Assembly (NCBI GenBank): GCA_963812155.1
Contig: CAWETW010000002.1
Location: forward strand, 192,001-256,000
Length of the DNA: 64,000 bases
Reading direction: 5' to 3'
Origin: Vulcanimicrobiota bacterium
GTDB taxonomy: Bacteria > Vulcanimicrobiota > Vulcanimicrobiia > Vulcanimicrobiales > Vulcanimicrobiaceae
The notes below the pieces were generated by a model, which saw only the letters and a program-made list of their open reading frames with translations, had not been told where the DNA came from and searched no databases. A program made the position numbers and the translations under genes. Numbering within the stretch: position 1 is the first letter of the stretch; the number at the start of each line of letters is the position of its first letter. This document shows, in pieces, positions 2,720 through 54,280 of the stretch.

Positions 2720-2726
2720 GAAACGA

Positions 2727-2757
2727 GGGCCGAAGTTTACTATGGTAAACGAGGCCC
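2727..2757. terminator. Hairpin between convergent genes
   Basis: gggcc..gtttac-tatg-gtaaac..ggccc imperfect stem between two stop codons. Confidence 0.35.
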
Positions 2758-2792
2758 GAGTTGACAACGAGTTGAGGTAAATCAGAGCTTCC

Positions 2793-4535
2793 TTAGATTG
2801 GGCCCATCGCTTTAGACAATAGCTGACAAGCGTCGGCGCCGACTTCTTTCGTAATGAGATCGTTGAGGAGCGCGTTCATCCGGAGAATCGTTTCTTGGTT
2901 CTTTCCGGGATCGAGCGCAAGATTCCGCACTTCGCCCGGATCGTTTTGCAAATCGAAGAGCTGAACGTCGTTGTTCTTCAGAATCTCGTCCAGCGTCGTC
3001 GGTATGTTACAGGCAGTCGGCGCATAGTAGCGACCGAATTTGTAGCGTCCGTCAAAAGCCAGTGCGAGCAAACCGCGTTTGGTCAAATTCGCTTGCGCTA
3101 ACGGCGGAGAAGGTTGGCCCCGGAACTGCGTGTCCATCGTTTTGTTTAGGAAATCGCCGTCGACGGTTGCCGGCCCAACGTAGTTAAAAAGAATCGCCGG
3201 ACGTATCTGCGTGAGACGCGCGCCCTCGGGGTCGTCGAGCAGCGGCGAAAAGTCGTGGCCGGGCAGCGCCGTCACGGCGGGCGGCCGTTTCGAATCCGGT
3301 AATCCGGTGAGTCCGACGAACGTGGGGAGAAGGTCGAGGTGACTGGTGAGCGCCGAGCACTTCGTGCCCGCCTTTGCAGTGGGGTGCGCAACGATGAGCG
3401 GCACGTGGACGTTTTCCTCGTAGACGAACGGGCCTTTGCCTTTGAGGCCGCCGTGGGCTCCTCCCATCTCGCCGTGGTCTGCCGTAAAGATTACAACGGT
3501 ATCCCGCCACAAATTCATCTCGTTCATGACGTCGACGATCTGCTGGATGCCGCGGTCGACGTCTTGAATGGCGTTAAGGTAGTAGTTGTAAAAGATCGTC
3601 CACATGTCTTTGCGATCGGTCGGAATGGTCCCAGACCAGCCGTCCCAGCCCTTTTTGTACTCTGACAGCGCATTCGGCATGCCCGGCGCGGCAAGCGATT
3701 CGTCGAGACTTGCCGGCAGCGTGAACGCCCATTTTTTATCGTAGATCGTGTTCGCCGGTGGGGGCGGCACGGCAGAGGGAATGACCGGAATCTGGACAGG
3801 CGGCTGCCCGGGAACGTTACCGTCACCGTACATGATGTCGTGCGGATTGACGAAGCTCGCCACCATAAAGAATGGCTGGCCGCTCTTTCGCGCTTCCGGA
3901 CCGGCTTCGCGCAAATAGCGCGCACTCTCGCCTGCGATGAAGAGGTCGTTGTCGTAGCCGCTGTCGGGCGTGCTGCCGATGTCACCGCCGGAGCCGAATT
4001 TATCGAAGCCATAGGCTTGGGCTGCGTCGCTGTAGTTTACGCTAGGTTTCGGATCCAGAATCTCCTGGTCCATTTCGAATTTTCCGAAATAGGCGGTTTT
4101 ATAGCCCATCCCTTTCAGCACCGATCCCATATTCGGCATCTTCGGATCCAAGCTGTGCACGAACGAGAATTGCATTTGGTCGATGACACCGGTGACTTGA
4201 GGCGGCTGGCCCGTGAGAAACGACGCTCTGGAGGGCGAGCACTGCGCGGTCGAGATGTAATGCTTCTGAAACGTGACTCCGCGTTCGGCCATCGCGTTCA
4301 TCGCGGGCAACGAATAGTCGGAATCTGCGAGCAGTTTTTCGACTCTTTGGTCGACGATGATGAAGACGATGTTATAGGGCGGCTTGCCGGCAGGTCCGGT
4401 CGCGATCGATCGGCTATGCGAGGTCTGCGCGGCCGCGTATTCGGGGATCCGCATCACCCCGAGGCCTGCCAAGACCTGCGCGCTTCGCGTAAGAAACTTA
4501 CCTCTCGTCTTGCTGGACGATTCCTCGCGCTTCAT
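2793..4535 (-). CDS. Sulfatase-family hydrolase with Tat-like signal
   Basis: NIVFIIVDQ, CSPSRASFLTG (CxPxR formylglycine motif), GKFE, FTADHGE; KTRGKFL leader. Confidence 0.88.
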   Translation of the reverse strand: MKREESSSKTRGKFLTRSAQVLAGLGVMRIPEYAAAQTSHSRSIATGPAGKPPYNIVFIIVDQRVEKLLADSDYSLPAMNAMAERGVTFQKHYISTAQCSPSRASFLTGQPPQVTGVIDQMQFSFVHSLDPKMPNMGSVLKGMGYKTAYFGKFEMDQEILDPKPSVNYSDAAQAYGFDKFGSGGDIGSTPDSGYDNDLFIAGESARYLREAGPEARKSGQPFFMVASFVNPHDIMYGDGNVPGQPPVQIPVIPSAVPPPPANTIYDKKWAFTLPASLDESLAAPGMPNALSEYKKGWDGWSGTIPTDRKDMWTIFYNYYLNAIQDVDRGIQQIVDVMNEMNLWRDTVVIFTADHGEMGGAHGGLKGKGPFVYEENVHVPLIVAHPTAKAGTKCSALTSHLDLLPTFVGLTGLPDSKRPPAVTALPGHDFSPLLDDPEGARLTQIRPAILFNYVGPATVDGDFLNKTMDTQFRGQPSPPLAQANLTKRGLLALAFDGRYKFGRYYAPTACNIPTTLDEILKNNDVQLFDLQNDPGEVRNLALDPGKNQETILRMNALLNDLITKEVGADACQLLSKAMGPI

Positions 4536-16704: not shown

Positions 16705-18075
16705 ATGCAGTATCGCATGATTCTCGTTCTCGCTTTGCTGGCGTCCGGTTTGGCCGGTTGTTCCCAACCGGCGAATCCGGCCGGCTTTGCACCCACGGCG
16801 GTGCGCGCAACGAAGACGTCGCAGTCTGCCGGCAAAATCCAGCATGTCGTCATCATCATTCAAGAAAATCGAAGTTTCGATAACATCTTCGCGGGCTTTC
16901 CCGGTGCCGACGCGCCCTTAACGGGTTTGCGTCACAACGGTAAGGTCGTGACGCTGCACCAAGCAACGTTGACCCAACGCCCCAACGTCGATATCAAGCA
17001 CGACTATAAGCACTCGCAGATAGAGTACGATGCCGGAAAGATGGACGGCTTCGACGAGGACGTCTGGAATGACGGGCAGCCGGCAAAGACGTATCCTTAC
17101 GCGTATCTGAGCCACAAGCAGGTCGCGCCGTACTGGGCGATGGCCAGTCAGTACACGCTGGCCGACCGCATGTTCCCCACGGTCTGGGGACCCAGCTTCA
17201 CCGCCCATCTCGATCTGATCGCCGGCACGACGGTCGTAAGCCGGGCGCCGCTTCGGATCGTAAGCGAAATCGATTATCCATACAATCAAGACAATCCGAA
17301 CTGGACGTGCGCCGCCCAGCCGCCGCCACCGTCGTACATCCTGGTGGACGCGAAGGGAACGATCTCCGAAACGGGAGGCGGCCCCGCGCCCTGCTTCACA
17401 CAATTTCACACCATGGCGGACACGCTGGATACCGCCCACGTGTCGTGGCGATACTACGCACCCGCGCTTTCGACCGGAAGCGGTCAGTTGTGGTCTTCCT
17501 TCGCGGCAATCAAAAACATCTACAACGGACCCGATTGGACCAACGTCATCGCGCCGGAAACGACCGTGCTCAAAGATATCAAGAACGGAAAGTTACCATC
17601 CGTCGCATGGGTTGTGCCCAACGTGAACAACTCCGATCACGGCGGCAGCGGATCGGATACCGGCCCGTCGTGGGTTGCCGCAATCGTCAACGGGATCGGA
17701 GAAAGCGCCTACTGGAACTCTTCGGCGATCGTCGTCTTATGGGACGATTGGGGCGGATGGTACGATGACGCCCCGCCGCCGCAGTTGGATTTCATGGGTC
17801 TGGGCTTTCGCGTCGGGTGCATCCTCATCTCTCCTTACGCAAAAGCCGGGACGGTCTCACACACGCAATACGAATACGGCTCGATTCTCAAGTTCGTCGA
17901 GCAGACGTTCGGCGCGGCTTCGCTGGGTTACACCGATGCGCGGGCAACCAGTCTCAGCGACAGCTTCAATTTCGCGCAACGCCCCATCGTCTTCAAAAAC
18001 ATTCCGGCAAAGTATCCGCCCTCGTACTTCCTTAAACAACGCTCCCCGGGCAAGGTTCCCGACGACGACAATTGA
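16705..18075 (+). CDS. Phosphoesterase (AcpA/PLC superfamily) lipoprotein
   Basis: LAGC lipobox; [31 protein letters not shown]. Confidence 0.9.
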   Translation: MQYRMILVLALLASGLAGCSQPANPAGFAPTAVRATKTSQSAGKIQHVVIIIQENRSFDNIFAGFPGADAPLTGLRHNGKVVTLHQATLTQRPNVDIKHDYKHSQIEYDAGKMDGFDEDVWNDGQPAKTYPYAYLSHKQVAPYWAMASQYTLADRMFPTVWGPSFTAHLDLIAGTTVVSRAPLRIVSEIDYPYNQDNPNWTCAAQPPPPSYILVDAKGTISETGGGPAPCFTQFHTMADTLDTAHVSWRYYAPALSTGSGQLWSSFAAIKNIYNGPDWTNVIAPETTVLKDIKNGKLPSVAWVVPNVNNSDHGGSGSDTGPSWVAAIVNGIGESAYWNSSAIVVLWDDWGGWYDDAPPPQLDFMGLGFRVGCILISPYAKAGTVSHTQYEYGSILKFVEQTFGAASLGYTDARATSLSDSFNFAQRPIVFKNIPAKYPPSYFLKQRSPGKVPDDDN

Positions 18076-40898: not shown

Positions 40899-41052
40899 TT
40901 ACGCACGATCTCCGGCGGGCGCCCTAACCGATTCCCTTTTCTGAAACTCCATTATCGTTACGAAGCTCTGTCCGCGGCCGCGTCGCCGATCGTGGGTTGA
41001 ACTTCAAGCGCGAAGGCCTGCGGGCTGGGCGCGCGCAAATGTACGGCTCGCC

Positions 41053-42880
41053 GTGGAATTGTTGCGTTTTTCCGATCTCGAATGTCACTATGGGGCACGC
41101 GAAGTATTCTCGAGTCTTAGCGGAGTCTTCAACCACGGCGAACGCATCGGTCTCGTGGGCCCCAACGGCGCGGGGAAGTCGTCGCTCCTGCGTCTTCTCG
41201 CCGGCATCGACAGGCCATTCGGCGGTAGCGTCATACGGGCGAAAGGCTTGACGCTCGGGTATCTCGCACAAGGCGTTGCCGACGAAACCGAGTCGACGCT
41301 GCAAGACCTCGTTGACGCCGCGCTGTCTAGGGCGACGCACGAAGAGTCGGGCGTGCGTAACAAAGCGCTGCGCACCATGCTCTCAGCGTTCGGCTTCGCG
41401 CCAACTGAATACGACCGTCCGCTACGCTCGTTTTCAGGCGGCCAACGGGCGAAAGTCGCGTTAACGCACGTGCTGATCGACGAACCGGACTACCTGATTC
41501 TCGACGAACCGACGAACCATCTCGATGTCGCGACGATCCGCTGGCTCGAATCGTTCGTGTCCAACGATCCGCGCGGTTATATCGTCGTTTCGCACGACCG
41601 CTACTTTCTCGACCGGATATCTACACGCATCTGGGAGATCGAGCGAGGGCGCTTCCACGCCTACTCGCCCGCGCGGCCCGCATACACCGCGTACGTCGCA
41701 GCGAAAGCCGTGCGCCTAGAAGCGGAGCGGCGCGAGTACGAAACGTTCGTTGTCGAACGCGATAAGCGGCGCAGAACGATCGCCGGCCTGCGAGCGACGC
41801 ACACCTCCTCAGATTACAGCCAAGTGCGCAGTCGCGAGAAGCAGCTGGCGCGCGTCGAAGCGATAACCCGAGCCCCGTCTCCGGCGGCTCCCGAACGCCC
41901 GATCTCTGTCCGCCTGCGTCCATCGCGGCGCGCCGGCAGCGGATTCGCCTTCGAAGCCCGGGGCTTGAGCAAAGCGTACGATCAACAACTCTTCAGCCGG
42001 CTAGCAATCGACGTCGAGCGCGGAGAGCGCCTCGGCATCGTCGGTCCAAACGGCTCCGGAAAGTCGACGCTTCTGAAGATACTCACCGCCGCAGTGCAAC
42101 CGGATTCCGGATCGGTCGTCTTCAACCCCGCGGCGCAAGTCGCGTACTTTGCCCAGAATTTCACACGATCAACTCGACGTCCAGGAGAGCGCGCTCGCAG
42201 CCGTATTGGACGGCGCTGCACTGACCCCGCAGGATGCGCGCGGACTGCTCGGCCGCATGCGTATTAGCGGCGATGCCGCCGACAAAGCCGTGCGCGATTT
42301 TTCCGGTGGAGAGCGGCGCCGTATCATGCTGGCACGACTGATGGCGCGCGCGGCCGACATCTTGCTGCTCGACGAGCCGACCAACGATCTCGATATCGAC
42401 AGCCGCGAAGCACTCGAAAGCGTCTTATCCGACTACGAGGGAACGATCGTCGTCGTCTCGCACGATCGCTATCTTCTGTCGCTTCTGTGCGATCGGGTAT
42501 TGTGGCTTGAACGGGGGGCGTGGGGAGTCGTCGACGGCGGTTACGACGTGTACGAGGCGGCCCAGCGAGAGCGCGACAAAGCGGCGATTGAGCGCGCGGT
42601 CGAAGAGTCGACCGAGCGTGCCAAGGCGTCGCGTCAAACGCCATTGCGCGTACGCTCGCAGCTAACGGGGCAGATCAAGCGAGTCGAGCGAGAAATCGAA
42701 GGCCTCGATGCGCGCGTCAGCGAGATCGAGCTTCTTTTCGAGTCACCGGAGATCTACACCGACGCGGCCGGATCTAAGGCATTGAGCCAAGAACTCGCTG
42801 AACTAAAAATGCGCAGTCGGGAGCGCGTGATCCAGTGGGAAGCGTTGCTGCATCAACTCGAAGAATTGACGGCCACGTAA
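41053..42880 (+). CDS. ABC-F family ATPase (Uup/YdiF-like); +1 frameshift at T-run 42159-42161
   Basis: Two ABC domains (GPNGAGKS/FSGGQ/LDEPTNHLD; GPNGSGKS/FSGGE/LDEPTNDLD), no TM, C-terminal coiled coil; deleting one T gives FAQNSHDQLD. Confidence 0.92.
42644..42846 (+). repeat. 203-bp direct repeat, copy 1 (3' end of ABC-F gene)
   Basis: Ungapped match to 46109-46311 with 10 mismatches by manual alignment. Confidence 0.95.
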
Positions 42881-44233
42881 CGACCGAATTAGAGGCGCTC
42901 GTTGAGGCACGCTCGCAATCGCGTCGATCGATTTGCCTGTGAGGCTTTCCAGAGCCGGCCGGGCGAGCGACGATCGGCTCTCCCCGCGTTCGGTAAGCGC
43001 TCGCGGCAATAACTGAAACGGATTCACACCGCCTTCCGACATAATATACCAGGCCGTTGCGCCGACGTGGAGCGATGAAAAATATTTGTCGCCGTCGCAG
43101 TCACTGATGGTTCTTGAGGCGGCGATGATGCCGAGGCCGTCTCCATTCGGTCCATTCGATTGCGCGTACTGGATATCGTTAAGGTATTGCTTCGCTTGGC
43201 TCCGGTCGCCGGATGCGTTCCTTAGCTCGAGCGCATCGGCGAGGTGCGCCGTGCCTTCGAACCATACGCCGGAGCGGTCGCGGCTGCAGAAGCTCACGCC
43301 GCTGAAGCCGCCCTCACTGACCGATAGATTCGCTACGTCCCAGCTCGGCGCAGCGGCCCACGCCGGGTTCGCAAAGGCAAGATAACTCCACGAGTTTACG
43401 TCTTCAGGTTTGAACGTCTTGTTCGGCGTTACACCGTCGTCGCCGGTACCGGCGTAGAAGCGGCTACCACGCTCGTCCCACATCGAGCCTACGAACTGTT
43501 TGGCCCAGGCCGCGTTGGTTGCCCACTCGTTCTGACCTGACTCCGCGGCCAGCATGGCGAAAAACACGTACACGTCGAGGTTATGCTCGGTCGACTTCCA
43601 TTCGATCTTCTTGCCGCGTGCCGTGTAGCCGCCGGTGTATCCGCCGGCGCCGCGTGTATCGTACGTGTTCTTTTGCAGCCAGTGCGCAATCGCAAGCGCC
43701 CCATTGAGGTACTGCTGATCCGAAGTTGCTGCGTAGGCTTGAACGAGCGCCTGTCCGACCCAGGCCATGTTTCCAACGTCGCTCGTATTGTCGCTCACGA
43801 TCACATCGTTCGGGCCTCTCAAGGGGTTAGGCGCGTAGGCCGCACGGAGGCGCCCATCGCCAACCTTGTCGTGGGCCTGAACGTACAGGAATGCTTTGCC
43901 AACCACTTCCGCTCTCGCGGTATCATCGGAAGAACCGCCTGCCAGCATCGCATCGACGAACAGCGCATCGTCATAGGTCACGGCGTCCTTGAAATTTTTC
44001 AGCGGGCCGCCGTCGAAGCTCTGCACGAGCCGCGGCGTCGAGCCCTTTGCGTATTTGTCCATCATCGCCTCCAGAAACGTGTACGCATTGGAAATGCTCG
44101 TCGAAGATTGGTCCGTTGAAAGCGCCATGGCATTTGGTGTTGATGGAACTGCTTTAGGTGCACCCGCTGCGCAGCCTCCGCTCGCAATGAGTCCGACAAC
44201 GGATGCCAGCGCAAAAGAAGCTTTTAACTTCAT
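42803..44233 (-). CDS. Lipoprotein, probable (alpha/alpha)-barrel glycosidase-like fold
   Basis: ASGGC lipobox; YDDAL, GNMAWVG, WKSTEHNLD, VWFEGTAH, HVGATAWY, GVNPF; fold is inferred. Confidence 0.75.
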   Translation of the reverse strand: MKLKASFALASVVGLIASGGCAAGAPKAVPSTPNAMALSTDQSSTSISNAYTFLEAMMDKYAKGSTPRLVQSFDGGPLKNFKDAVTYDDALFVDAMLAGGSSDDTARAEVVGKAFLYVQAHDKVGDGRLRAAYAPNPLRGPNDVIVSDNTSDVGNMAWVGQALVQAYAATSDQQYLNGALAIAHWLQKNTYDTRGAGGYTGGYTARGKKIEWKSTEHNLDVYVFFAMLAAESGQNEWATNAAWAKQFVGSMWDERGSRFYAGTGDDGVTPNKTFKPEDVNSWSYLAFANPAWAAAPSWDVANLSVSEGGFSGVSFCSRDRSGVWFEGTAHLADALELRNASGDRSQAKQYLNDIQYAQSNGPNGDGLGIIAASRTISDCDGDKYFSSLHVGATAWYIMSEGGVNPFQLLPRALTERGESRSSLARPALESLTGKSIDAIASVPQRAPLIRSLRGRQFFELMQQRFPLDHALPTAHF

Positions 44234-44394
44234 CGACCATTCTTACGCGCCTCGCCGCGTTCTCCTAGGATGTCATCATTCGCTCCGCTAGCGCGAGCGG
44301 AAAAAGAAAAATCGGCGAGCCACGACGGACCCGGATCGAGATTCTTTTAACGGCTGCCCGAGAAGCACGCCCTAGCGAGGTAGCCGCATTTTAC

Positions 44395-45393
44395 TCATAG
44401 CAGCCCTGCGATTTCGGAAGACTGGTTCGGCGCGAACTGGTTTGTGGACGCGGGCGGTTGCGCACTTGCCATCACTGCAATGGTCTCCGCGATCGTCTCT
44501 TTGGCAGTGTAATGCACCATGTGCCCGACACCATGGATGATCAGCAGTTTCGATGCAGGAATTTCTTCTGCGAGACGCTTGGATTGGGCCGGACTTACTA
44601 CCTTGTCGTCGGCGCCCGCAACGATAGCGACAGGGACCGCCAACTCTTTGTAGCGATGCTCCATCGACGCAGCCGAAGGAACCATCAGCGCCGTATCTTC
44701 AGCATTGGCCCGAATCTGCCATGGACGGATCGCCATTGCTAGCTCTGGCTTGATGGCCGGGTCGACGTCTGCGGGCGCGAACAGTTGCGCCGAAACTACG
44801 GGCGCCAACGCAGCTCCGAGTGGCGGCAAGACCGTGTAGCGCAGAACGTCACCGATAATCGGCAAAGCCGGAGTCCCGAAGAGCGCCGCATCAACTCGAA
44901 ACGTCGGGAAAAAATATCCTGAAATCAGGAGCAAGCCTTTGTAATGAACCGGATATTCTAGGGCGAGCGCCAGTGCCACGAGCGTTCCCCAAGAATGCCC
45001 GACGATCACCGTTGCGCCAATGTTGAGCCTTTGCAGCGCCTCGTGCAGTAAGGTTGCCTGCGCCGCGGCCGTCCAGACTTGGCCTCGCGGACGAGTGCTG
45101 TAGCCGAAACCGGGGCGATCGAAGGCGATGACGCGATGCGTCCCGACTAGCGCGTGGATCAGGCCGCTGGATTTCCAATCCTGAGCCGTTACGCCGTTGC
45201 CGTGCAGGAGCACGACCGAAGGCCCATCGCCTTCGTCGGTGTAGTGCAAGCGCGCGTCCCCGACGTCCATGAAGCGCCCGCTCGGGGGGTGGCGTCGTTC
45301 AGTTCGGCGAGCGGAGGCGATATTGAGCGCTGCGCCGGCAGCGAGGGCGGCGGCCGTAATTACAGCCGTCCGGATAGTCGTAGAGCGTTTCAA
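44395..45393 (-). CDS. Alpha/beta fold hydrolase
   Basis: LLHGNG, FDRPGFGYS, GHSWG, GADD, GHMVH. Confidence 0.92.
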   Translation of the reverse strand: MKRSTTIRTAVITAAALAAGAALNIASARRTERRHPPSGRFMDVGDARLHYTDEGDGPSVVLLHGNGVTAQDWKSSGLIHALVGTHRVIAFDRPGFGYSTRPRGQVWTAAAQATLLHEALQRLNIGATVIVGHSWGTLVALALALEYPVHYKGLLLISGYFFPTFRVDAALFGTPALPIIGDVLRYTVLPPLGAALAPVVSAQLFAPADVDPAIKPELAMAIRPWQIRANAEDTALMVPSAASMEHRYKELAVPVAIVAGADDKVVSPAQSKRLAEEIPASKLLIIHGVGHMVHYTAKETIAETIAVMASAQPPASTNQFAPNQSSEIAGLL

Positions 45394-45666
45394 TGAGTTC
45401 CGTTCACGGCGCGGGTGTAGCGCCTAGCCCGCAAGCCTTACCCATTTACACCGAACTCTACTAACTCCATCGACATTCCGTTTAGGCACCACACGCTCGA
45501 AACGACGAGCGGCGAGCAAGCGTTGCGACAGTTATGACGGCTGGCAGAGACTATATACGATGCCGCGCTTAATGGAAGATCCGTCGGCATCCAGGGCGAG
45601 CGCGCAACCGTTCCTCCGCGCGGATTCGCGCATGTGCGCTGGATTCGCGATCGGCATGCGTTTGCA

Positions 45667-45867
45667 CTACGATACCTTTTCATCTCCGACTGTCGCTTCT
45701 CGGGCGGCCCGTTTAGCGTCGTCAGTGGTATGCGCGCAGCTGGAGTGACCGCAGCTGCAATGGCCGTAATCATTTGAGGCGCGGCATTTCTTGTCGCAAT
45801 ATTCGTCTTCGGTGCTTACCTGGCACTTGCAGCCGTCACCGCGGCAATTGTATTTTGAACCTTCCAT
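45667..45867 (-). CDS. Bacterial metallothionein-like protein (SmtA/BmtA-type spacing)
   Basis: C-x4-C-x-C-x-V...YC-x3-C...HCxCGHxxC; 8 Cys and 3 His within about 40 aa. Confidence 0.75.
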   Translation of the reverse strand: MEGSKYNCRGDGCKCQVSTEDEYCDKKCRASNDYGHCSCGHSSCAHTTDDAKRAAREATVGDEKVS

Positions 45868-46098
45868 GAGCGGCCTGTACCCACTTTAGCATAGCCAAAA
45901 CCGGGCTGTTAATTGAAGTATGAAGGGCCGCAAACGCGGGAACTGCTAGCACCGTGCCGAGAATCCCGAGCGTCGCGCCACGGATGACTATTGCAATGAA
46001 GATCACCGATGCATAGACGCCCACGCTTTTGGCCACGATGATCGGTGCGAAAACCCGGCCCTGACCTTCAAACACGAGCGTGAAAGAGACCGAGCGCG
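45836..46098 (-). pseudogene. AI-2E family transporter C-terminal remnant
   Basis: FEGQGRVFAPIIVAKSVGV...IAIVI.G..LGILG.VLAVP matches the AI-2E C-terminal pattern; no 5' part, cut at the repeat junction. Confidence 0.7.
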
Positions 46099-46108
46099 TA
46101 AAACGACG

Positions 46109-46333
46109 TTGCGCGTACGCTCGCAGCTAACGGGGCAGATCAAGCGAGTCGAGCGAGAAATCGAAGGCCTCGATGCGCGCGTCGGCGAGATCGAGCTTCT
46201 CTTCGAGTCGCCCGAGATCTATACCGACGCGGCCGGATCTAAGGCACTGAGCCAAGAACTCGCTGAACTGAAAAAGCGCAGTCGGGAGCGCGTCATCCAG
46301 TGGAAAGCGTTTCGGGCGCATTTGCTTGCGTAG
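46109..46333 (+). pseudogene. Orphan duplicate of ABC-F 3' end (203-bp repeat copy 2 = 46109-46311)
   Basis: LRVRSQLTGQIKRVEREIEGLDARV...ERVIQW nearly identical to the ABC-F C-terminus. Confidence 0.92.
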
Positions 46334-46462
46334 CCGGTAGATGCATCGCTTTTCTAGCGTTTGACAAAACCAACAAGAAGGCGCAGCATGGATAAGGATT
46401 GCTAAAGGCGGGCCATTATTGGCCGGCCTGTTGGGCTTTCCAGCCGTTGAAAGGGAGTTATC

Positions 46463-47668
46463 TTGCGCCGTTTACCGTTTGTAGTCGGCTCCGCTTTGGT
46501 CTTCTGCGTTGGCTTGCCGGGATGCTCGCGCGCGACCGGGCCGGCATTACCTAACGTCGCAAGTGCCGGGTTCTCGCAGAAAAGCGATGCTGGGGGCTTT
46601 AGCGTGGTGCACAGCTTCGGCGGAGCCAAGGACGGAAATACGCCGTTTGGGAGTCTCATCTATGTCGATGGAGGTTTCCTAGGCACGACCTCACTGGGCG
46701 GCGCCGCCGCAATGGGAACCGTCTTCAAGACGAGCTCGAAGGGGCAGGAACGCGTTCTGCACAGCTTCGGCGGCGGCAGCACCGACGGCGCGGCCTCCGA
46801 AGCGAGCTTGATCGAAAAAAATGGCGCCCTTTATGGCACAACGTACTCCGGCGGCCCGAACGACGCTGGAGTCGTTTTTCGCATTAGCTCGGCGGGTACG
46901 GAAAAAGTGTTGCACGCCTTCGGAGACGGTCAGGATGGGCGCTATCCAAGAGCAGGCCTTATTTATGTGAATAATATGCTTTACGGCACGACATACGCAG
47001 GCGGCACTTGCGCCACATATGGCGGATGCGGAACGATTTTTGCGATCAATCCCAAGACCGGCGCCGAGCACGTCCTGCACAGTTTCGGGAACGGCACAGA
47101 CGGCGCTTATCCGTATTATTCCGGCTTGGCGTTGGTCAAAAGTACGCTCTATGGCACGACGACTCTTGGCGGCAAGTACGGCTACGGCGCCGTCTTTAGT
47201 GAGACTCTTGGGGGCTCGGAGCGAGTACGTTACAGCTTTAAAGGCGAACCGGACGCGGCAAATCCCTACGCAGGCTTGATAACCGTGAAGGGCACGCTCT
47301 ACGGCACGACGGAATTCGGCGGCAAGATCGGCCACGGTGCCGTCTTTAGCTTGAGCACCGCGGGCGCAGAGCACGTGCTGTACAGCTTTTCAACTAACAA
47401 CCTGCAGTATGACGCGGCTCAGCCCAGCACCAGCTTAATCTATGTGAACGGCACGTTCTACGGAACGGCGGGCTACGGCGGCACGGCCGGCGACGGAGCC
47501 ATTTACAGTGTGAGTTTGCAAGGCAAGGAGCAAGTACTGCACAGCTTCAGCGGTGCCTATCAGGCGTTCCCGTCGAGCTTGCTCGACGCGAACGGCGCGT
47601 TGTTTGGCACAACTCAGTTCGACGGCACCAACAACGACGGGAACGTCTTCCGGCTAGCTATCCCGTAA
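46463..47668 (+). CDS. Tandem-repeat lipoprotein (choice-of-anchor GloVer-like, 7 repeats)
   Basis: GGGAG SD; LPGC lipobox; seven E.VL(H/Y)SF.G..DG..P...LI...G.LYGTT..GG...G.VF units. Confidence 0.88.
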   Translation: MRRLPFVVGSALVFCVGLPGCSRATGPALPNVASAGFSQKSDAGGFSVVHSFGGAKDGNTPFGSLIYVDGGFLGTTSLGGAAAMGTVFKTSSKGQERVLHSFGGGSTDGAASEASLIEKNGALYGTTYSGGPNDAGVVFRISSAGTEKVLHAFGDGQDGRYPRAGLIYVNNMLYGTTYAGGTCATYGGCGTIFAINPKTGAEHVLHSFGNGTDGAYPYYSGLALVKSTLYGTTTLGGKYGYGAVFSETLGGSERVRYSFKGEPDAANPYAGLITVKGTLYGTTEFGGKIGHGAVFSLSTAGAEHVLYSFSTNNLQYDAAQPSTSLIYVNGTFYGTAGYGGTAGDGAIYSVSLQGKEQVLHSFSGAYQAFPSSLLDANGALFGTTQFDGTNNDGNVFRLAIP

Positions 47669-47865
47669 CCACGCCCAGCGGGCCGGGAGACCCGCGCTCA
47701 CTTGACCAAGCGACCGCAAGCCGTTCGCCGGAAATGCTTTGGGGTAGCGCTCAAATCATCAATAAACTAGGCCATTGGTATGGGAAATGGGGCCTGATGG
47801 CCTCAACCGGCTGACCCGCGACGAGCGATATAATCGGAAAAAGCTACGTTGAGGGAGCCCGTTCT

Positions 47866-48906
47866 ATGAAGCATCTGAGAGTTTTATTCCTTGCGTCTGC
47901 GCTGGGCGCATGCAGCACCAATCCGTCAACGTCGGTCATGCCGGGAGGAGCGGCGGCACCGACCGTGCCGGATGCGGCCACCGCGCAGCACGCGCTCGAC
48001 CTTCGTCCCACTTCGTCGGGTCCGTTTCTCGGCTGCCCGTATCCATCGGGAGACGTGTGGCAAACCGACATTTCGTCGTCGGGCCTTGCGACGGACAGTG
48101 CGGCGAACATCAAAGCCACGATCGACGGCCACGGAAACGGACGGTTCAGTGCCGGTGTGGTCGTTGGCGACCAGAAGAATATTACGAACGAGTACGTCAA
48201 TATGGCGAACAACTCCACCCAGCTGGTCGTCGTCCATCCGAAAAAGTCGTATCACACGCCGAAGAGCCCGGAGCCGTGGGTGTTCAGCCCTCCCTATTAC
48301 ATCGAGCCGACGTCGAACGCGCACGCGATGGTGTTGCAGAAAGATGTCTGCCAATATTACGAAACATACAGCACGACGGCAAAGCCCGCCACTCACCAGC
48401 TGTCGGCCTACAGCGGCACGTTTGTGGATTTGACTCAGCCGTTCACGCGACCGGCAACCGGCGGGTGCTCGACGTCATCGTGCATTCCGATCGGCCTCCT
48501 CGCCGTTCGACCTGAGGAGTTAGCCGCCGGTGTAATCAGCCACGCTCTCGGATGGGACGCGATTGCGGGATCCGTCTCGAAGTACACCTGTGTCAGCCCT
48601 GCTGCCGTCACCGGCTGCACGGATAACCGCGGCTACAGGGGACCGCATCGCGAGGCCCCTAAGGCGATGCCCGCCGGCGCGCACATCCGTCTCAAGGCTT
48701 CCTTCGATATTTCGCACTTTCATCCCGAAGCAAAGATCGTAGCCACGGCATTACGGCAGTACGGCGCGTATCTTTTCGCCACAGGGACGAACAATCTGAT
48801 CCCTTTCGTCAACGACGTCAATGGTGCTCCCGCATGGAACGCCGACGACCAGACGGATCTAGGATCGATCTCAATCGGTGACTTCGACGTCGTAACTGCA
48901 CCGTAG
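47866..48906 (+). CDS. Hypothetical lipoprotein
   Basis: GAGGGAG SD; LGAC lipobox; [16 protein letters not shown] and [11 protein letters not shown]...ALRQYG. Confidence 0.8.
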
Positions 48907-48919
48907 GGCGCGATTCTCG

Positions 48920-50266
48920 GTGTCACGTTATAAGCTTTGGTTTCTCTGCTGCTTGTGCGCCGCACTCTGCGCCTGCAGCGGCAGCAGCGACTCCTTACCG
49001 CGTTCTTCGGGCCTGGTAGACGCGCGCACGCTACGCCCGCACACGTCGGATGGCGATTACATCAAGCACATTGTTATCGTGGTCCAAGAGAATCGCAGCT
49101 TCGACAATTTATTCGCGACGTATCCGAATGCCGATGGCCAGACGCGCGGTAAAAATAGCACCGGCCAATGGATCCAACTCAGGTCTGAAAAGCTGTATAG
49201 CCGGCTTGAATTGGAGAATAGCCACGCTGCGTTCAAAGTCGACTACGATCAAGGGAAAATGGATGGTTGGAACTTGGTTTACGTAAACTCGGTTCCCTGT
49301 CCCACCTGTGCGTATGCCTACGTGAATCCCGCGCAGATCACACCGTATTGGACGATGGCGCAGCAGTACGTCCTTGCCGACCATATGTTTCCGTCGGAGA
49401 GCAGCGGCAGCTTTTCCGCCCACCAGGATCTGATTCGGGGCGATAGCGTCCTCGACGCCAACGATACCCTCATCGATTTCCCGTCTCACGGCCCATGGGG
49501 CTGCGACGCCCAAGCCGGCACCACGACGCCGCTCTTGAGTGCGCAGGGCCATTACAAGCTCAACGGGCCGTTTCCATGCTTCGACTACGACACGCTGCGG
49601 GATACGCTCGATGCAAAGTCCGTTTCGTGGAAATACTACACGCCGTCGCTCTTTAGCGGTGGCCTCGCAGGCGCGTACTGGGATGCGTTCGATGCAATTC
49701 GCGCCGTACGGGACGGATCGGAATGGACATCGAATATTTCATCTCCAGAGAAGAATATTTTTAACGATATTTCAAAGGGCAAGCTCGCATCCGTTTCGTG
49801 GGTGATCCCCGACGGGCAAAACTCCGATCACCCGAGTTTTGCGAAATCGGATACCGGCCCGTCGTGGGTGGCCCAAGTCGTTAATGCCGTCGGTCAAAGC
49901 CAGTATTGGGATTCTACGGCCGTCGTCATTACATGGGACGATTGGGGCGGATGGTACGATCACGTACGACCGCCGCACCTTGACTACGCCGGCCTCGGAT
50001 TTCGCGTGCCCATGCTCGTCGTCTCGCCCTACGCAAGAACCGGCTATGTCGCGCACACGCAATATGAGTTCGGCAGCATCGTGAAGTTCGTCGAGGATGT
50101 TTATGGCCTAAGCCGCTTGGGAACTAGCGACGAGCGCGCGGCGAGCATGGACGGCGTCTTCGATTTCACGCAAAAACCGCGCTCGTTCGCGCCCATTCCT
50201 GCCAAATACTCGAAGTCGTACTTCGAACGCCAAGCGCCGTCAAACGAACCGGTCGATACGAACTGA
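48920..50266 (+). CDS. Phosphoesterase (AcpA/PLC superfamily) lipoprotein, paralog of 16705-18075
   Basis: LCAC lipobox; [34 protein letters not shown]. Confidence 0.9.
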
Positions 50267-50278
50267 AGGCGCCTTCAG
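50263..50278. terminator. Perfect 16-bp palindrome spanning convergent stop codons
   Basis: ctgaaggcgccttcag is its own reverse complement. Confidence 0.4.
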
Positions 50279-50418
50279 CCGATGAGATGTGGGAGTGGAT
50301 TCCCGCTATCCCAGTTCTTGAATATCACTCGGCACGTCGTCGACGTTGCCGGCGCGGAGTTGGCGGAGATCGTGACCGGCCTCGTGGGTCCCGGCGAACC
50401 TACGACACGGTGGCGCGG

Positions 50419-50608
50419 TCGTGGATCACGGCGGACCTTTATACGCACGTCCTCGGCGACTTGAAAGCCGAAGCTGCCGACCGGCTCGACATCATCTTCC
50501 GCGATGCCGAGGCGCGGCGTGCTGAGGTCGCCGAACGCGAAGTGTGGGCCAAATGTGGGCCACCCGAAAAGCTGACTGCGAAAAAAGTCAGTAAAATAAC
50601 GCGTTTCG
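50419..50608 (+). pseudogene. Tyrosine integrase C-terminal stub
   Basis: SWITADLYTHVLGDLKAEAADRLD aligns with TITLSTYAHLMPEAQREAVDRL of the neighbouring integrase; followed by TGTGGGCCA x2 and the att core. Confidence 0.8.
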
Positions 50609-50631
50609 TGGTAGCGCCAACGGGAGTCGAA
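50609..50631. repeat. att core: duplicate of tRNA-Glu 3' end
   Basis: tggtagcgccaacgggagtcgaa vs tggtagcgccaacgggaatcgaa at 53257-53279 (22/23). Confidence 0.93.
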
Positions 50632-50643
50632 TCGGTTCGAGCG

Positions 50644-50760
50644 TGGTCAACGCTGGTCACGAATGGCCAAAACCCCGCATGAAATAAGGGGTTACGCCGG
50701 GCTGGATGGTCACGCGTGGGCACTCGTGGTTGCCATTGACGGCAACCGTTTGGCAACCGC
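50644..50760. promoter_or_regulatory. att arm region: phased TGG(T/C)CA repeats and integrase arm-type sites
   Basis: tggtca/tggtca/tggcca at 10-bp spacing; aacccc..ggggtt inverted repeat; inverted ggttgcca at 50728; GGCAACCG at 50741 and 50752. Confidence 0.7.
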
Positions 50761-51112
50761 GAGAACGTGCACCCAATCCTGGGCCGAGTGAGGGTTTGCG
50801 TATCGCGTGACGATGCTTTGCGTATCTGCCGGCGATCGCGCGCCTTCTCGGCCACGCAATGCCCGCGCACGCTTACTGTGAGATGCCGGTCGGCCCCACG
50901 CGACCCCAAGAAGTAGAACCGCACGCGCTTGGGCACAACGGAATTTTTTTTCAGTATTTTCCTTCCGAGCTGTTCGTCATCTGCTTGATAATGAGAAGTG
51001 CGAGCACCGCGCGGCGTCCCATGACTTGCACCTAGGGGGAATCGTTCAGCGGCGACGAAGGCTCGGGCATTGCCCGGGCTACTCGTTGTCACCGCCAACG
51101 TGGAGGTCCTCG

Positions 51113-52141
51113 ATGATTCGTCGCATTTGCCGTGCGACCATTGCCGTCGCCATCGTTTCGACGGCGCTTGCCCTGGCCGCGTGCGGTGCTGGTCCATCGA
51201 ACTGGCTCTCGCCGCGCGTCGCACCGCAGTTGACCCTGGAAAATCAGGCGGGGGAGCCTGCAGGAAGCTGTCGGACCGCCTCGTGCATGTATGTCACCGA
51301 CCGCAATACCAACGCGGTTACGGTGTACGCAGAGGGCGCGGCCGGTAACGTCGCACCGCTCGAGACTATCAGCGGCTCGAATACGCTGCTGCTTAGCCCC
51401 GTTGGGATCTTCGTGGATTCCGGCCGGGCGATCCACGTCGCGAATTATGGCGGAAATACCGTGACGGTTTATGCCGCCGGTAAGACTGGCAACGTCGCGC
51501 CGACGTCCACGATCGCGGGTCCGCATACCCTCTTAAACGGTCCAGATTCAGTCGCCGTGGACGCCGGCGGTGTATCCTATGTTGCGGATTGGAGCAACAA
51601 CAGCCTAACGGTCTACAAAAAGGGTGCCCACGGTGACGTGAAGCCGATCCGCACCATTAGCGGCGGGAGCACGACGTTATCCGGTCCCGTGGGGATCGCT
51701 TTGGACGCCGCTCCCAAGTTGTACGTCGCGAACCTGGAGGCCAACTCAGTGGCCGTTTTCGCGGCGGGCGCGAAGGGCAATGTGGCGCCGGTTCAGGCCA
51801 TCAGCGGCTCGAACACGTTGCTGAACGGTCCGGGAGGCGTCGCCGTGGATACCGCTCGGAAGATCTACGTCGCCAACTCCTACGGCAACAGCGTCACCGT
51901 TTATGCCGCGGGCGCGACCGGAAATGTCGCACCGATCCGAACCATCAGTGGCGCGAACACTGGGTTGACCTATCCGACGCAGGTCGCCCTCGATGCCCAC
52001 CACTACATCTACGTTACGAACCGTGACGCTAACAGTGTGACCGTCTACGCACCGAGCGCAAAAGGCAACGTAGCGCCGGTCCGCATCCTGAGCGGTTCCA
52101 AAACGACGTTGACTTCTCCGGCTGGGATCTCGCTGCAATAA
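51113..52141 (+). CDS. NHL-repeat lipoprotein (six about 48-aa repeats)
   Basis: GGAGG SD; LAAC lipobox; six G(N/D)V(A/K)P..TISG..T.L..P.G.A.D....YV.N...N.VTVYA units. Confidence 0.9.
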   Translation: MIRRICRATIAVAIVSTALALAACGAGPSNWLSPRVAPQLTLENQAGEPAGSCRTASCMYVTDRNTNAVTVYAEGAAGNVAPLETISGSNTLLLSPVGIFVDSGRAIHVANYGGNTVTVYAAGKTGNVAPTSTIAGPHTLLNGPDSVAVDAGGVSYVADWSNNSLTVYKKGAHGDVKPIRTISGGSTTLSGPVGIALDAAPKLYVANLEANSVAVFAAGAKGNVAPVQAISGSNTLLNGPGGVAVDTARKIYVANSYGNSVTVYAAGATGNVAPIRTISGANTGLTYPTQVALDAHHYIYVTNRDANSVTVYAPSAKGNVAPVRILSGSKTTLTSPAGISLQ

Positions 52142-52195
52142 ACGCCTAGAACGCGTGGTCCGTCGGCGCAAGTAACGCAACCCGAGCAATCCCAC

Positions 52196-53320
52196 TTGAT
52201 AACGATGGGCGTCGGGTGTCTCGTCAACGCCCTGCGACGCCGGCGCGTTGACCTTCCTGCAACCGACGGCACCGAAATTGCACCGCGCCTCATACGTCCG
52301 CATCTTGGAGGCGTCGCACTCGTCAAACTTCGGCCCGCACGCATCGCAGAATGGGTCGCGGCGCTTCTCAAACGTAGTGGTAAAGCCACGAAGACAGCCG
52401 ACGGCACCTTTCGTGAGCGTCCGCTATCGGCAAAAAGTGTTTACCATGCCTTCACGCTCTTGAACGGCGCGATGCGTTTTGCGCTCCGCATGGAGCTTAT
52501 CGGCCGCAATCCGTGCGAGGCTGTGACACGGCCGAGCGTGAAGCGTTCCAACGCCAAAGCTTTTTCAGCCGATGAGGTGACTCGCCTGCTCGATGTAGCA
52601 CGTGGTACTCGTTGGGAGCCTTTTGTAACGCTCGCACTTTCGACCGGAGCGCGACGGGGCGAGCTGTGTGGCGCATCCTGGCTGGATTACGACGCTGAGA
52701 GCGGCACGCTGACGATTCGGCACTCGCTCTCGCAAACGCGCCGAGGCATTACCCTCAAAGCGACGAAAACGGGCCGCACGCGCACACTGCCACTCTCGCG
52801 CATAGCAAAAGATGCGCTGCGTTCACAAGGCGCGCTGCAGGCCCGCGAGCGCCTCGCAAACGGCGTCTCTTACCAAAACGCTGACGATGCGATCTTTGCG
52901 GATGAGATTGGCCGGCGCGTCACGCCGATGGCAGCGTCGTGCGCCTTCGAGCGGATCGCCCGCAAGGCGGGGATATCGTCGACGCGTTTGCACGACCTGC
53001 GGCATACTGCGGCAACGACGTTGCTGCTCGCGGGTGTGGATGTTCGGACCGCCGCAGGCGTTCTCGGTCACGCCTCGCCGACTATCACACTTTCGACCTA
53101 TGCGCACCTCATGCCGGAAGCGCAGCGCGAGGCCGTCGATCGCCTCGGCGAGCGCCTCGAACGGCTCGCCGCCGTCAGTTTTGACACGGCACGGCAACCG
53201 AATGGCAACCGCCTCGCCGCGAGCATTGAAAAAAGCCTGCAAATACAGGCCATTTCTGGTAGCGCCAACGGGAATCGAACCCGTCTTTCCGCCTTGAAAG
53301 GGCGATGTCCTAACCGATAG
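52196..53320 (+). pseudogene. Tyrosine integrase lacking the N-terminal arm-binding region
   Basis: TGARRGE, KT, HDLRH, LGH, TYAH catalytic residues intact; recognisable homology starts only at about 52286 (RLIRPHLG); no SD for the upstream TTG/ATG. Confidence 0.85.
53229..53250 (-). terminator. Intrinsic terminator after tRNA-Glu
   Basis: Minus strand gcctg-tatttg-caggc followed by six T. Confidence 0.65.
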
Positions 53321-53331
53321 ACGATGGCGCC
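53257..53331 (-). tRNA. tRNA-Glu (anticodon UUC)
   Basis: GGCGCCATCGTCTATCGGTTAGGACATCGCCCTTTCAAGGCGGAAAGACGGGTTCGATTCCCGTTGGCGCTACCA: 7-bp acceptor stem, CT-TTC-AA loop, GGTTCGATTCC T-arm, encoded CCA. Confidence 0.97.
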
Positions 53332-53447
53332 GCGAGTGACCTCAAAACCCTAACGGCTCGCGAGTGGGATGTCAACGTCGGCGGTCGGCAGGCATCGGAC
53401 CGGCGGACGCGGCGAGGAGCGCCCCGAATCCGGGCGAAGGCGCCAGC

Positions 53448-53900
53448 GTGACCACCGACGAGCGCCGTTTCGAGGGATTCCTAGCCGAATTCGAACCGAG
53501 CGTCGCGGCCCTAGGGCGCGCCGCGGTCGCGCAGCTCCGAAAGCGGCTGCCCTCCGCCGACGTGATCGTTTACGACAACTACAATTTCTTCGTGACCGGC
53601 TTTTCACCGACCGAGCGGCCCTCCGATGCCGTGTTTTCGATCGTGATGAGTGCTAAGGGTGTCGCCCTATGTTTCCTGCAAGGCGCCGCACTCCCCGATC
53701 CGCACGGGATCCTACGCGGCTCCGGTAAAATCGTGCGCAACGTTCGCGTTCAGGCAGTCGAGGATTTCGATCGCCCCGAGCTCGCGATGCTTCTGAGCCT
53801 CGCGCTCGACAACGCACGCGTGCCGTTCGACCCGAAGCGTGACGGCCGATTCTACATCCGCTCCGTTTCGGCAAGGAAGCGACCGCGGCGCAAAACATGA
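53448..53900 (+). CDS. DUF1801 / YdhG-like protein
   Basis: VYDNYNFFVTGFSPTERPSDA.FS, LCFLQGA.LPDP.G.L.GSGK.VR. Confidence 0.8.
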   Translation: MTTDERRFEGFLAEFEPSVAALGRAAVAQLRKRLPSADVIVYDNYNFFVTGFSPTERPSDAVFSIVMSAKGVALCFLQGAALPDPHGILRGSGKIVRNVRVQAVEDFDRPELAMLLSLALDNARVPFDPKRDGRFYIRSVSARKRPRRKT

Positions 53901-54280
53901 CTGACGGCCTTCTTACACGCGAAGAGTTCGAGCGGGTCGTCGAAGAGGCGCTCGATTCCCTTCCCAAGCGGTTCGCGGAAATGGTGCACAATGTGGCAAT
54001 CACCGTCGAGGAAGAACCTACAGACGAGGATCTCGAGAGCATCGACGACGACTCCGACGAATATGACGAAGATTCGGAGTTGCTCGGAATCTATCGCGGC
54101 GTGGCGCTCACCGAACGCACGCATGACGACCCTTTGATACCCGATGAGATCGCGATCTTCCGCGGTCCGATCAATCGCGTCGCGCAAACGCGGCGTGAAG
54201 CCGTCGAAGAAGTACGCGAGACGGTAATTCACGAGTTGGGACACTACTTCGGACTTCACGATCACGACATGCCTCACTAG
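53897..54280 (+). CDS. Minimal zincin-like metallopeptidase (DUF1025 family)
   Basis: F...V.EALD.LP, LLGIYRGV.LTER, PDEI.IFR.PI, ETVIHELGHYFG. Confidence 0.9.
   Translation: MTDGLLTREEFERVVEEALDSLPKRFAEMVHNVAITVEEEPTDEDLESIDDDSDEYDEDSELLGIYRGVALTERTHDDPLIPDEIAIFRGPINRVAQTRREAVEEVRETVIHELGHYFGLHDHDMPH

What the first reader, a model, noticed from the sequence alone, without database searches (positions are those of the whole stretch)
50609..53331. Stripped-down one-gene integrative cassette at tRNA-Glu with intact recombination ends
Seen: the tRNA-Glu 3' end is duplicated 2648 bp away (22/23). Both ends carry the same 11-bp-phased pair acGGCAACCGnnTGGCAACCGc (20/22). The left end adds an inverted copy and TGG(T/C)CA repeats at 10-bp spacing. 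Inside are only an NHL-repeat lipoprotein and an integrase with all catalytic residues but no N-terminal part. Established: lambda-type tyrosine integrases use core plus arm-type sites, with phased directionality-factor sites. Inference: a non-autonomous mini-island mobilised in trans that moves one surface beta-propeller gene, a possible route for the expansion of such lipoproteins in this lineage.
Basis: partly seen in the sequence, partly recalled or inferred. Interest (0 to 1): 0.78.

Follow-up and report, generated by a model that had tools for sequence, protein, structure and literature searches.

The report
Broken, chimeric mini-island at tRNA-Glu
A 2.6-kb stretch beside a tRNA gene keeps both recombination ends and one predicted surface propeller lipoprotein gene but only a truncated integrase, and it is most likely the stranded, spliced-together remnant of small satellite-like islands that are common in this soil bacterial family, not a shown, working one-gene cassette.

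Summary
In detail: tRNA-Glu 3' copy 22/23 at 2648 bp, arm pair 20/22, phased repeats, NHL lipoprotein, integrase lacking residues 1-90 of 391. (1) The unit is one layer of a tandem array; an older integrase tail with other arms lies just outside. (2) The arm pair marks a family-wide group of small tRNA-targeting elements (72 of 251 genomes; control 0). Intact ones (4.5-16 kb) usually carry integrase, HTH regulator, excisionase and primase/helicase, like PICMI satellites or tycheposons. All 7 both-ended copies under 4 kb have lost these genes and share no interior. (3) The NHL/integrase junction is a relic arm site of a second integrase subfamily, and one contig from another study continues there into that subfamily's att end. 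So the cassette is a chimera. No cognate integrase was found in this genome (84% complete), and no excision joint in contigs. A close relative holds the same NHL module without core or integrase, and neighbouring genes outside the ends moved just as recently. Verdict: a CIME-like remnant of an apparently undescribed family of a known kind. Mobilisation in trans is possible but unshown.

The parts
50425..50520 (+).
   Evidence: tblastn hit 50425-50499, 56%; similar tail before tRNA-Glu(CTC) on C3
50543..50562 (+). 11-bp-period arm pair TGTGGGCCA of the older element
   Evidence: same pair after the integrase remnant at C3:1094187
50572..50591 (-). hairpin after the displaced tRNA end (terminator-like; inferred)
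   Evidence: sequence; same position as the hairpin at the tRNA end (family D2)
50609..50631 (-). displaced copy of the tRNA-Glu 3' end (att core, junction between two array layers)
   Evidence: 22/23 with 53257-53279
50644..50732 (+). two triplets of 10-bp-phased hexamers, likely excisionase sites (inferred)
   Evidence: positions; phased GGT(C/T) columns conserved in 14 far ends; 8 of 14 elements with a full-length integrase gave an excisionase hit (Pfam HTH_17)
50728..50759 (+). far-end arm sites: inverted GGTTGCC plus GGCAACCG-TT-TGGCAACCG pair
50833..51005 (+). non-coding segment shared with far ends of some relatives; function unknown
   Evidence: blastn hits in L036, L047, L170, L173, L174; not seen in most other far ends
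51113..52141 (+). NHL six-bladed beta-propeller, predicted lipoprotein (342 aa, Cys24)
   Evidence: Pfam NHL; model pLDDT 90.6; best folds Pizza6 and NHL domains
52236..52287 (+). relic integrase-side arm array (GCACCG pair at 52269-52285) of a second integrase subfamily that targets tRNA-Ser(TGA) and others; marks the chimera junction
   Evidence: motif in 65 of 251 genomes vs 3 controls; follows near-full-length integrase hits at tRNA-Ser; alignment; contig of run X5 continues into that att spacer
52280..53167 (+). 3' three quarters of a tyrosine integrase gene (residues 91-386 of 391); arm-binding domain and first half of the SAM-like domain missing; no native start
53193..53211 (+). tRNA-side arm pair GGCAACCG-AA-TGGCAACCG
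53234..53251 (-). terminator-like hairpin after the tRNA
53257..53331 (-). tRNA-Glu(TTC), intact integration target

Best explanation
This is most likely a stranded, chimeric remnant of a small satellite-like integrative element: it shows two att ends, one intact propeller gene and an integrase missing its first 90 residues, and it is predicted to be unable to excise on its own. Shown: relatives carry larger elements with the same arms in the order tRNA, integrase, HTH regulator, excisionase, primase/helicase, cargo, far end. Shown: the window lacks everything between the cargo and integrase codon 91, and the join sits on a relic arm site of a second integrase subfamily. Inferred: a Glu-type element integrated into tRNA-Glu in front of an older remnant. 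An NHL module that had sat at the end of a Ser/Arg-type element then replaced its regulator, excisionase, replication genes and integrase 5' end, by homology in the shared far-end arm on one side and a short-homology join at the relic arm on the other. Inferred: the ends persist because the tRNA end and its terminator are needed and the event is recent. Movement now would need a visiting element that supplies integrase and excisionase, or transfer of the whole island block.
For: 14 of 22 distinct both-ended elements have a full-length integrase match (4.5-16 kb; some with a stop or frameshift), 3 a partial one and 5 none; all 7 under 4 kb lack full integrase, excisionase and primase and share no interior. 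Of 67 tRNA-side ends with enough upstream DNA, 23 are full, 15 partial and 29 have none (one 'partial', L089, is full). Partial integrases start at scattered residues: 91, 127, 140, 150, 151, 174, 180, 205, 261, 301, 302, 355, and one lacks its middle. Gene set of the larger elements. Relic arm. No helper found in G000 or in 5 relatives. No joints and flat depth near 8x. G001 (core about 88-92% identical) has 50708-52274 at 97% without core or integrase, 15 kb from the tRNA. Synonymous divergence is 0.015 for NHL and 0.020 for the phosphoesterase outside the ends, vs 0.22 for two core genes, so a larger block moved. Same decay path in print for CIMEs (PMC5704250 passages), tycheposon islands (10.1101/2020.12.28.424599 passages) and defective P4 with intact cargo (PMC13586616 passages).
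Against: Both ends are complete and 296 integrase codons are unbroken, so the unit is a plausible substrate for a visiting integrase. G000 is only 83.85% complete, so a helper may be unassembled. Contigs drop rare circles. The NHL module lies on opposite sides of the shared block 40994-50340 in G000 and G001, which fits separate integration events. The Ser/Arg-type origin rests on one 387-nt contig at depth 3.5 plus motif homology that is only modest upstream of the arm pair (15-38 of 1000 shuffles for three ends, not significant for three others). The census was selected on intact arms and cannot measure arm decay.
Confidence: 0.64

Rival explanations
1. Working non-autonomous cassette: short both-ended units are excised and re-integrated in trans by full-length elements that share the arm sequence, and they spread as units.
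For: Both ends intact; 8 of 22 both-ended elements and 29 of 67 tRNA-side ends have no full integrase yet keep arms; one arm sequence and a conserved arm domain serve integrases at ten or more tRNAs; different array order in G000 and G001; PICMI int deletions are complemented in trans (PMC10803314 passages).
Against: No short unit found twice; no resident helper found in G000 or in the 5 relatives searched; no joints in contigs of 8 runs; no replication gene, so copy gain and packaging would be poor; neighbours outside the ends moved as recently.
Confidence: 0.17
2. Simple internal deletion: one larger Glu-type element already held the NHL gene and the relic arm as passengers, and a single deletion from the relic arm to integrase codon 91 removed the middle, with no swap between tRNA sites.
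For: Gene order of the larger elements predicts exactly this product; the GCACCG direct repeat offers short homology, and G001 also breaks in it; ends of both arm types meet in single arrays (L185, L261).
Against: Run X5 shows the NHL flank running on into a Ser/Arg-type att spacer (24 of 30 letters, ungapped, in register with L255; read by eye), so the module was at such an end in at least one lineage.
Confidence: 0.13
3. The truncated integrase is expressed from the fused ORF 52196/52205 and works as a simple Cre/Xer-like recombinase that needs no arms.
For: Open 374-aa frame; all catalytic motifs present; low dN/dS against homologs (0.07, 0.11).
Against: The first 25 or so codons are non-integrase DNA shared with G001; no ribosome site before the ATG and no sigma-70-like promoter found; the cut falls inside the SAM-like domain (residues 62-120 in full proteins); the low dN/dS reflects history before the cut.
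Confidence: 0.04
4. Assembly artefact joining two loci.
For: The genome is an incomplete 5-contig assembly with several similar remnants.
Against: Contigs span 50870-53958 (X1), the junction 52184-52438 (X3) and the far core 50508-50762 (X4); these runs are one study and may include the source sample.
Confidence: 0.02

Closest known systems
CIME (cis-mobilizable element), as defined in PMC5704250 (passages read)
   Same: Lost integration and transfer genes, keeps attL and attR, sits in a tandem array built by accretion at a tRNA 3' end.
   Different: Parent is not an ICE or IME: no relaxase or conjugation family among 116 of 193 ORFs scanned from relatives. Part of the integrase remains. Cis-mobilisation is not shown.
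PICMI phage satellites (PMC10803314, passages read)
   Same: Larger relatives are 4.5-16 kb with integrase, a gene abutting it, an HTH_17 (PF12728) excisionase, a primase/helicase and variable cargo, and no capsid or terminase family among the ORFs scanned.
   Different: They integrate in tRNAs, not at fis; the replication protein is mostly AAA_25 (DUF3987 and DUF3631 once each); arrays are common; no helper phage is known; the window copy has lost these genes.
Tycheposons and tycheposon-built islands (10.1101/2020.12.28.424599, passages read)
   Same: Cargo-carrying integrase elements with a small replication module, tRNA targets, tandem elements split by partial tRNAs, fragmented integrases left in the island.
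   Different: Integrase here points outward to the tRNA, not inward; lineage and hallmark profiles not tested; soil Eremiobacterota rather than marine bacteria.
Lambda-type heterobivalent att system (PMC4880445, passages read)
   Same: Core in the target plus distant arm-type repeats for an N-terminal domain, with phased accessory sites between them on one arm.
   Different: Binding is inferred from co-conservation only; the window protein lacks the N-terminal domain.
Defective P4-like satellites and cryptic islands with intact cargo (PMC13586616, passages read); integrase-only islands moved by jumbo phage (PMC12595487, abstract read)
   Same: Mobility genes decay while cargo stays near-identical; cargo is swapped quickly between elements.
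   Different: Cargo here is a predicted surface propeller, not a defence system; no P4 genes seen.

Membership tests
CIME | integration and transfer genes lost | tested here: met
   integrase lacks residues 1-90; no excisionase or primase
CIME | attL and attR retained | tested here: met
   core 22/23 and full arm set matching larger relatives; by sequence only
CIME | derived from an ICE or IME | tested here: not met
   no relaxase or conjugation family in 116 of 193 ORFs scanned from relatives; works like a CIME, parent is satellite-like
CIME | mobilised in cis by an element integrated next to it | not testable with these tools
   needs excision and transfer assays
PICMI | integrase + AlpA/HTH_17 + primase | tested here: not met
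   absent from the window unit; present as a set in several larger relatives
PICMI | integration at fis | tested here: not met
   targets are tRNAs
PICMI | phage-induced excision and concatemer packaging | not testable with these tools
   no close match in viral contigs, which is not evidence against
Tycheposon | [quoted passage not shown] | tested here: not met
   integrase reads towards the tRNA end in the window and in relatives
Tycheposon | tycheposon-specific integrase lineage and hallmark profiles | not tested
   profiles not on hand
Tycheposon | tRNA target, optional small replication module, cargo | tested here: met
   met by larger relatives; the window keeps target and cargo only
Heterobivalent tyrosine integrase | catalytic R-K-H-R-H-Y set | tested here: met
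   motifs located; Pfam PF00589
Heterobivalent tyrosine integrase | N-terminal arm-binding domain | tested here: not met
   missing in the window; present and most conserved in 20 full relatives
NHL beta-propeller lipoprotein | NHL repeats forming a six-bladed propeller | tested here: met
   (prediction)
NHL beta-propeller lipoprotein | lipidation and surface location | not testable with these tools
   lipobox LAAC at residues 21-24 in the translation; not assayed

The most novel reading that the evidence does not exclude
Arm-type sites act as swap points in a lineage-wide network: integrases that share one arm-binding domain but target ten or more tRNAs excise, re-integrate and splice integrase-free, arm-bounded cargo modules between tRNA hotspots, shuffling surface propeller genes in an integron-like way. 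The window would be a caught intermediate, since three strains differ at or inside the same 17-nt relic arm.
Probability: 0.12. Interest if true: 0.75.

Novelty: new member of a known kind. Interest (0 to 1): 0.36.

Why it matters
As it stands, the locus is a clear example of how tRNA islands grow and decay, and it exposes a family of small satellite-like elements across Vulcanimicrobiaceae/Eremiobacterota that my three lineage searches (open-licence PMC and bioRxiv only, top listings) did not show in print. The exact arm motifs give a cheap tag for finding these elements and their remnants, and a natural set of integrases with one arm domain and many tRNA targets. If arm-site swapping were real, it would be a new way to move cargo between islands without a resident integrase and would help explain the many surface propeller paralogs of these bacteria.

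Tried and rejected
Searches with no result: earlier notes on look-alike stretches and by words; the four notes are unrelated. Viral contigs: 0 pattern matches and 1 distant 26% hit. No RNA holder listed. No attP or empty-site joint in contigs of 8 runs; contigs drop rare forms, so this is weak. Idea that 52141-52277 is eroded 5' integrase of the Glu type: not significant (27-463 of 500 shuffles reach the score). Idea that the non-coding segment 50833-51005 is a universal packaging or transfer site: seen only in a few far ends, left as a lead. Idea that truncation junctions usually fall on arm sites: 2 of 14 junction regions hold an 11-bp-period pair, and only the window's is a known arm at the join (background 2.3%). 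The lipobox count missed the window's own gene and was not used. The Ser-type spacer was not found in G000 or G001, and ARAGORN lists no tRNA-Ser(TGA) in G000. The tree is the quick version, used only to show that the window integrase groups with Glu-TTC and Thr-GGT elements; no order of events is drawn from it. Clustering of NHL paralogs near tRNAs (15 of 31 within 20 kb vs 28% of the genome; 8 of 31 within 10 kb vs 16%) is modest and inflated by tandem clusters; five doubtful tRNA calls were left out. Many 1-mismatch hits of the second arm motif are chance: about 6 of the 20 fetched lie in ordinary genes.
Full report
Observation. Every stated feature is in the sequence. The tRNA-Glu(TTC) gene lies at 53331-53257; its last 23 bases recur at 50609-50631 with one mismatch, 2648 bp away; the arm pair agrees at 20 of 22; an inverted copy and two triplets of 10-bp-phased hexamers lie at the far end. 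The NHL gene (51113-52141) encodes a lipobox protein with six 48-residue repeats that folds with high confidence as a six-bladed propeller. The integrase matches a 391-residue homolog at 85% over residues 91-386 with all catalytic motifs and no internal break. Contigs of public runs span the junction and both ends, though those runs are one study and may include the source sample.

Host. The window is G000:C2:192001-256000, a 2.96-Mb, 83.85% complete genome. Named homologs of both proteins come from Eremiobacterota/Vulcanimicrobiaceae, so the host is most likely of that lineage.

The unit is one layer of an array. Just outside the far core lie the tail of a different integrase (50425-50499), a different 11-bp arm pair (50543-50562) and a hairpin. 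G000 has more such remnants at tRNA-Glu(CTC), tRNA-Arg(CCT) and tRNA-Ala(CGC), and two tRNA-Glu cores on C1 with no tRNA-Glu beside them. Relatives show arrays of two to four layers at tRNA-Glu.

The arms define a family. The pattern GGCAACCG-NN-TGGC-N-ACC is in 72 of 251 family genomes and the reversed control in 0 (the tally includes two unpublished genomes, G051 and G137). Matches sit at the ends of elements in tRNA-Glu (both), Ala, Thr, Gly, Ser, Arg, Leu, Asp, Asn and Tyr. In 20 full integrases next to the pair, residues 1-58 are 69% identical on average, against 42% and 50% for the core-binding and catalytic parts. That fits arm binding by the N-terminal domain as in lambda (PMC4880445, passages); binding itself is inferred. 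The larger elements typically read tRNA, integrase, HTH regulator, HTH_17 excisionase, small gene, AAA_25/DUF3987/DUF3631 primase-helicase, cargo, far end. No capsid, terminase, relaxase or conjugation family appeared in the 116 of 193 ORFs that I picked for the Pfam scan. Four GloVer propeller genes are cargo in two such elements, L128 and L097, whose integrases carry a frameshift or stop.

Short copies look like independent decay. Among 22 distinct both-ended elements (24 rows less two duplicates), 14 have a full-length integrase match, 3 a partial one and 5 none; all 7 under 4 kb lack full integrase, excisionase and primase, and no two share an interior. Among 74 tRNA-side ends, 67 had enough upstream DNA: 23 full, 15 partial, 29 none (L089 is really full; 27 arm hits were left unclassified). 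Truncations begin at scattered residues. This census was selected on intact arms, and I skipped hits at contig edges and in unpublished genomes. G000 has no other integrase above 36% identity, one of them with an internal stop. G001, G011, G014, G019 and G092 have none above 35%. In the family, 41 of 251 genomes have a match at E below 1e-60, so helpers exist but are patchy.

The closest relative. G001 is about 88-92% identical in syntenic core DNA but has window 50708-52274 at 97%, 15 kb from tRNA-Glu, with half of the far arm, no core and no integrase, on the other side of the shared block 40994-50340. Synonymous divergence is 0.015 for NHL and 0.020 for the phosphoesterase outside the ends, against 0.22 for enolase and the biotin ligase-like gene; a third island gene gives 0.105. 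The module crossed between the two species recently, but so did DNA outside the att ends. More distant orthologs lie 550 bp from a tRNA-Glu core copy without this arm pair (L191, 72%), 7.3 kb from tRNA-Gly (L192, 66%), or on a 5.5-kb contig with no att sign (L190, 74%). The gene belongs to the tRNA-island pool, not to this one cassette.

The junction is a second element's arm. The repeat GCACCG-AAATT-GCACCG at 52269-52285 has an 11-bp period. With one mismatch allowed it is in 65 of 251 genomes against 3 controls (includes four unpublished genomes; many one-mismatch hits are chance). Exact copies follow near-full-length integrase hits at tRNA-Ser(TGA) in L252, L253 and L257, and the window aligns with those ends over about 50 bases (modest significance upstream of the pair). 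One contig of run X5, from another study, matches 51986-52287 with 4 differences and then runs into sequence that agrees at 24 of 30 letters, ungapped and in register, with the att spacer of L255 (compared by eye; depth 3.5). So in that lineage the NHL flank ends a Ser/Arg-type element; in G000 it is spliced to a Glu-type integrase at the last bases of the arm; in G001 it breaks inside the arm. Such joins are not the rule: only the window, of 14 truncated integrases, has a known arm at the join.

How it most likely works. A complete Glu-type element integrated into the T-loop of tRNA-Glu in front of an older remnant (inferred from core and arms). The NHL module then replaced, or a deletion removed, its regulator, excisionase, replication gene and integrase 5' end (shown as absence; route inferred). 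What is left is a likely substrate without enzymes: the fragment lacks the arm domain and half of the SAM-like domain and has no native start. It could move only if a cognate element visits or if the island block is transferred whole. No circle or empty site was seen in contigs of 8 runs and depth is flat, which is weak evidence. I put 0.64 on this reading, 0.17 on an actively spreading non-autonomous cassette, 0.13 on a plain deletion without a swap.

Lipoprotein expansion. G000 has 31 NHL-like paralogs; 15 lie within 20 kb of a tRNA (28% of the genome), partly as tandem clusters, and only this one lies between such arms. tRNA islands contribute to the expansion; this cassette type alone does not explain it.

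Comparison and novelty. It works like a CIME (PMC5704250, passages) derived from a PICMI- or tycheposon-like parent (PMC10803314, passages; 10.1101/2020.12.28.424599, passages), and fails strict membership of each on parent type, target or integrase direction. Decayed satellites with intact, quickly swapped cargo are in print for P4 (PMC13586616, passages), and gene loss as a road to hitchhiking elements is reviewed in PMC11389934 (passages). Searches for this lineage's elements and for arm-site cargo exchange listed nothing on point, within an open-licence library and top listings only; supplements were not read. The locus is a new member of a known kind; the family and the arm-site junction are the parts worth following.

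Noticed in passing
window 41053-42880 and 46095-46311; G001:C1:1535990 and 1563936: An ABC-F ATPase gene is split in the window and its last 217 bp are repeated 3.5 kb on (94%); G001 has two copies, and identity to G000 rises from 92% to 98% across the block after it, as if it anchored a homologous exchange.
   Followed up: partly
G000:C1:573019 and 582173: Two tRNA-Glu(TTC) core copies, one with the same far arm, lie on another contig with no tRNA-Glu nearby, around about 9 kb of cargo with a 1307-aa ORF; not found in G001.
   Followed up: partly
window 50543-50562; G000:C3:494293; L034, L036, L039, L041: At least five other 11-bp-period arm families (TGTGGGCCA, TGGTGGTCA, CGTTAG, TGTGAGGAA, GGTGCAAC/GGTGCCAC) mark other integrase lineages at the same tRNA hotspots.
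   Followed up: no
L092, L094, L096, L146, L150, L252, L253: Some family members integrate at the 5' side of tRNA-Ser, tRNA-Arg(CCT) and tRNA-Tyr, with the tRNA reading away from the element.
   Followed up: no
window 53168-53320; P0002-P0005: The integrase frame has no stop before the arm and reads on antisense through the tRNA; some full-length relatives do the same.
   Followed up: no
window 50833-51005: Non-coding segment shared with several far ends, with a GGCCCCAC and an A/T run; could be a packaging or replication site; its first part also resembles an integrase C-terminal motif.
   Followed up: partly
window 2680-2796: A palindromic element of about 105 bp with at least seven other copies in the genome.
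   Followed up: no
window 48920-50266 and 16705-18075: Phosphoesterase-family lipoproteins with dozens of paralogous stretches across the genome, alongside GloVer and NHL propellers.
   Followed up: no
L033:8558-11762 (G001): Tandem near-identical lipoprotein genes next to an IS110 transposase remnant in the tRNA-Glu island.
   Followed up: no
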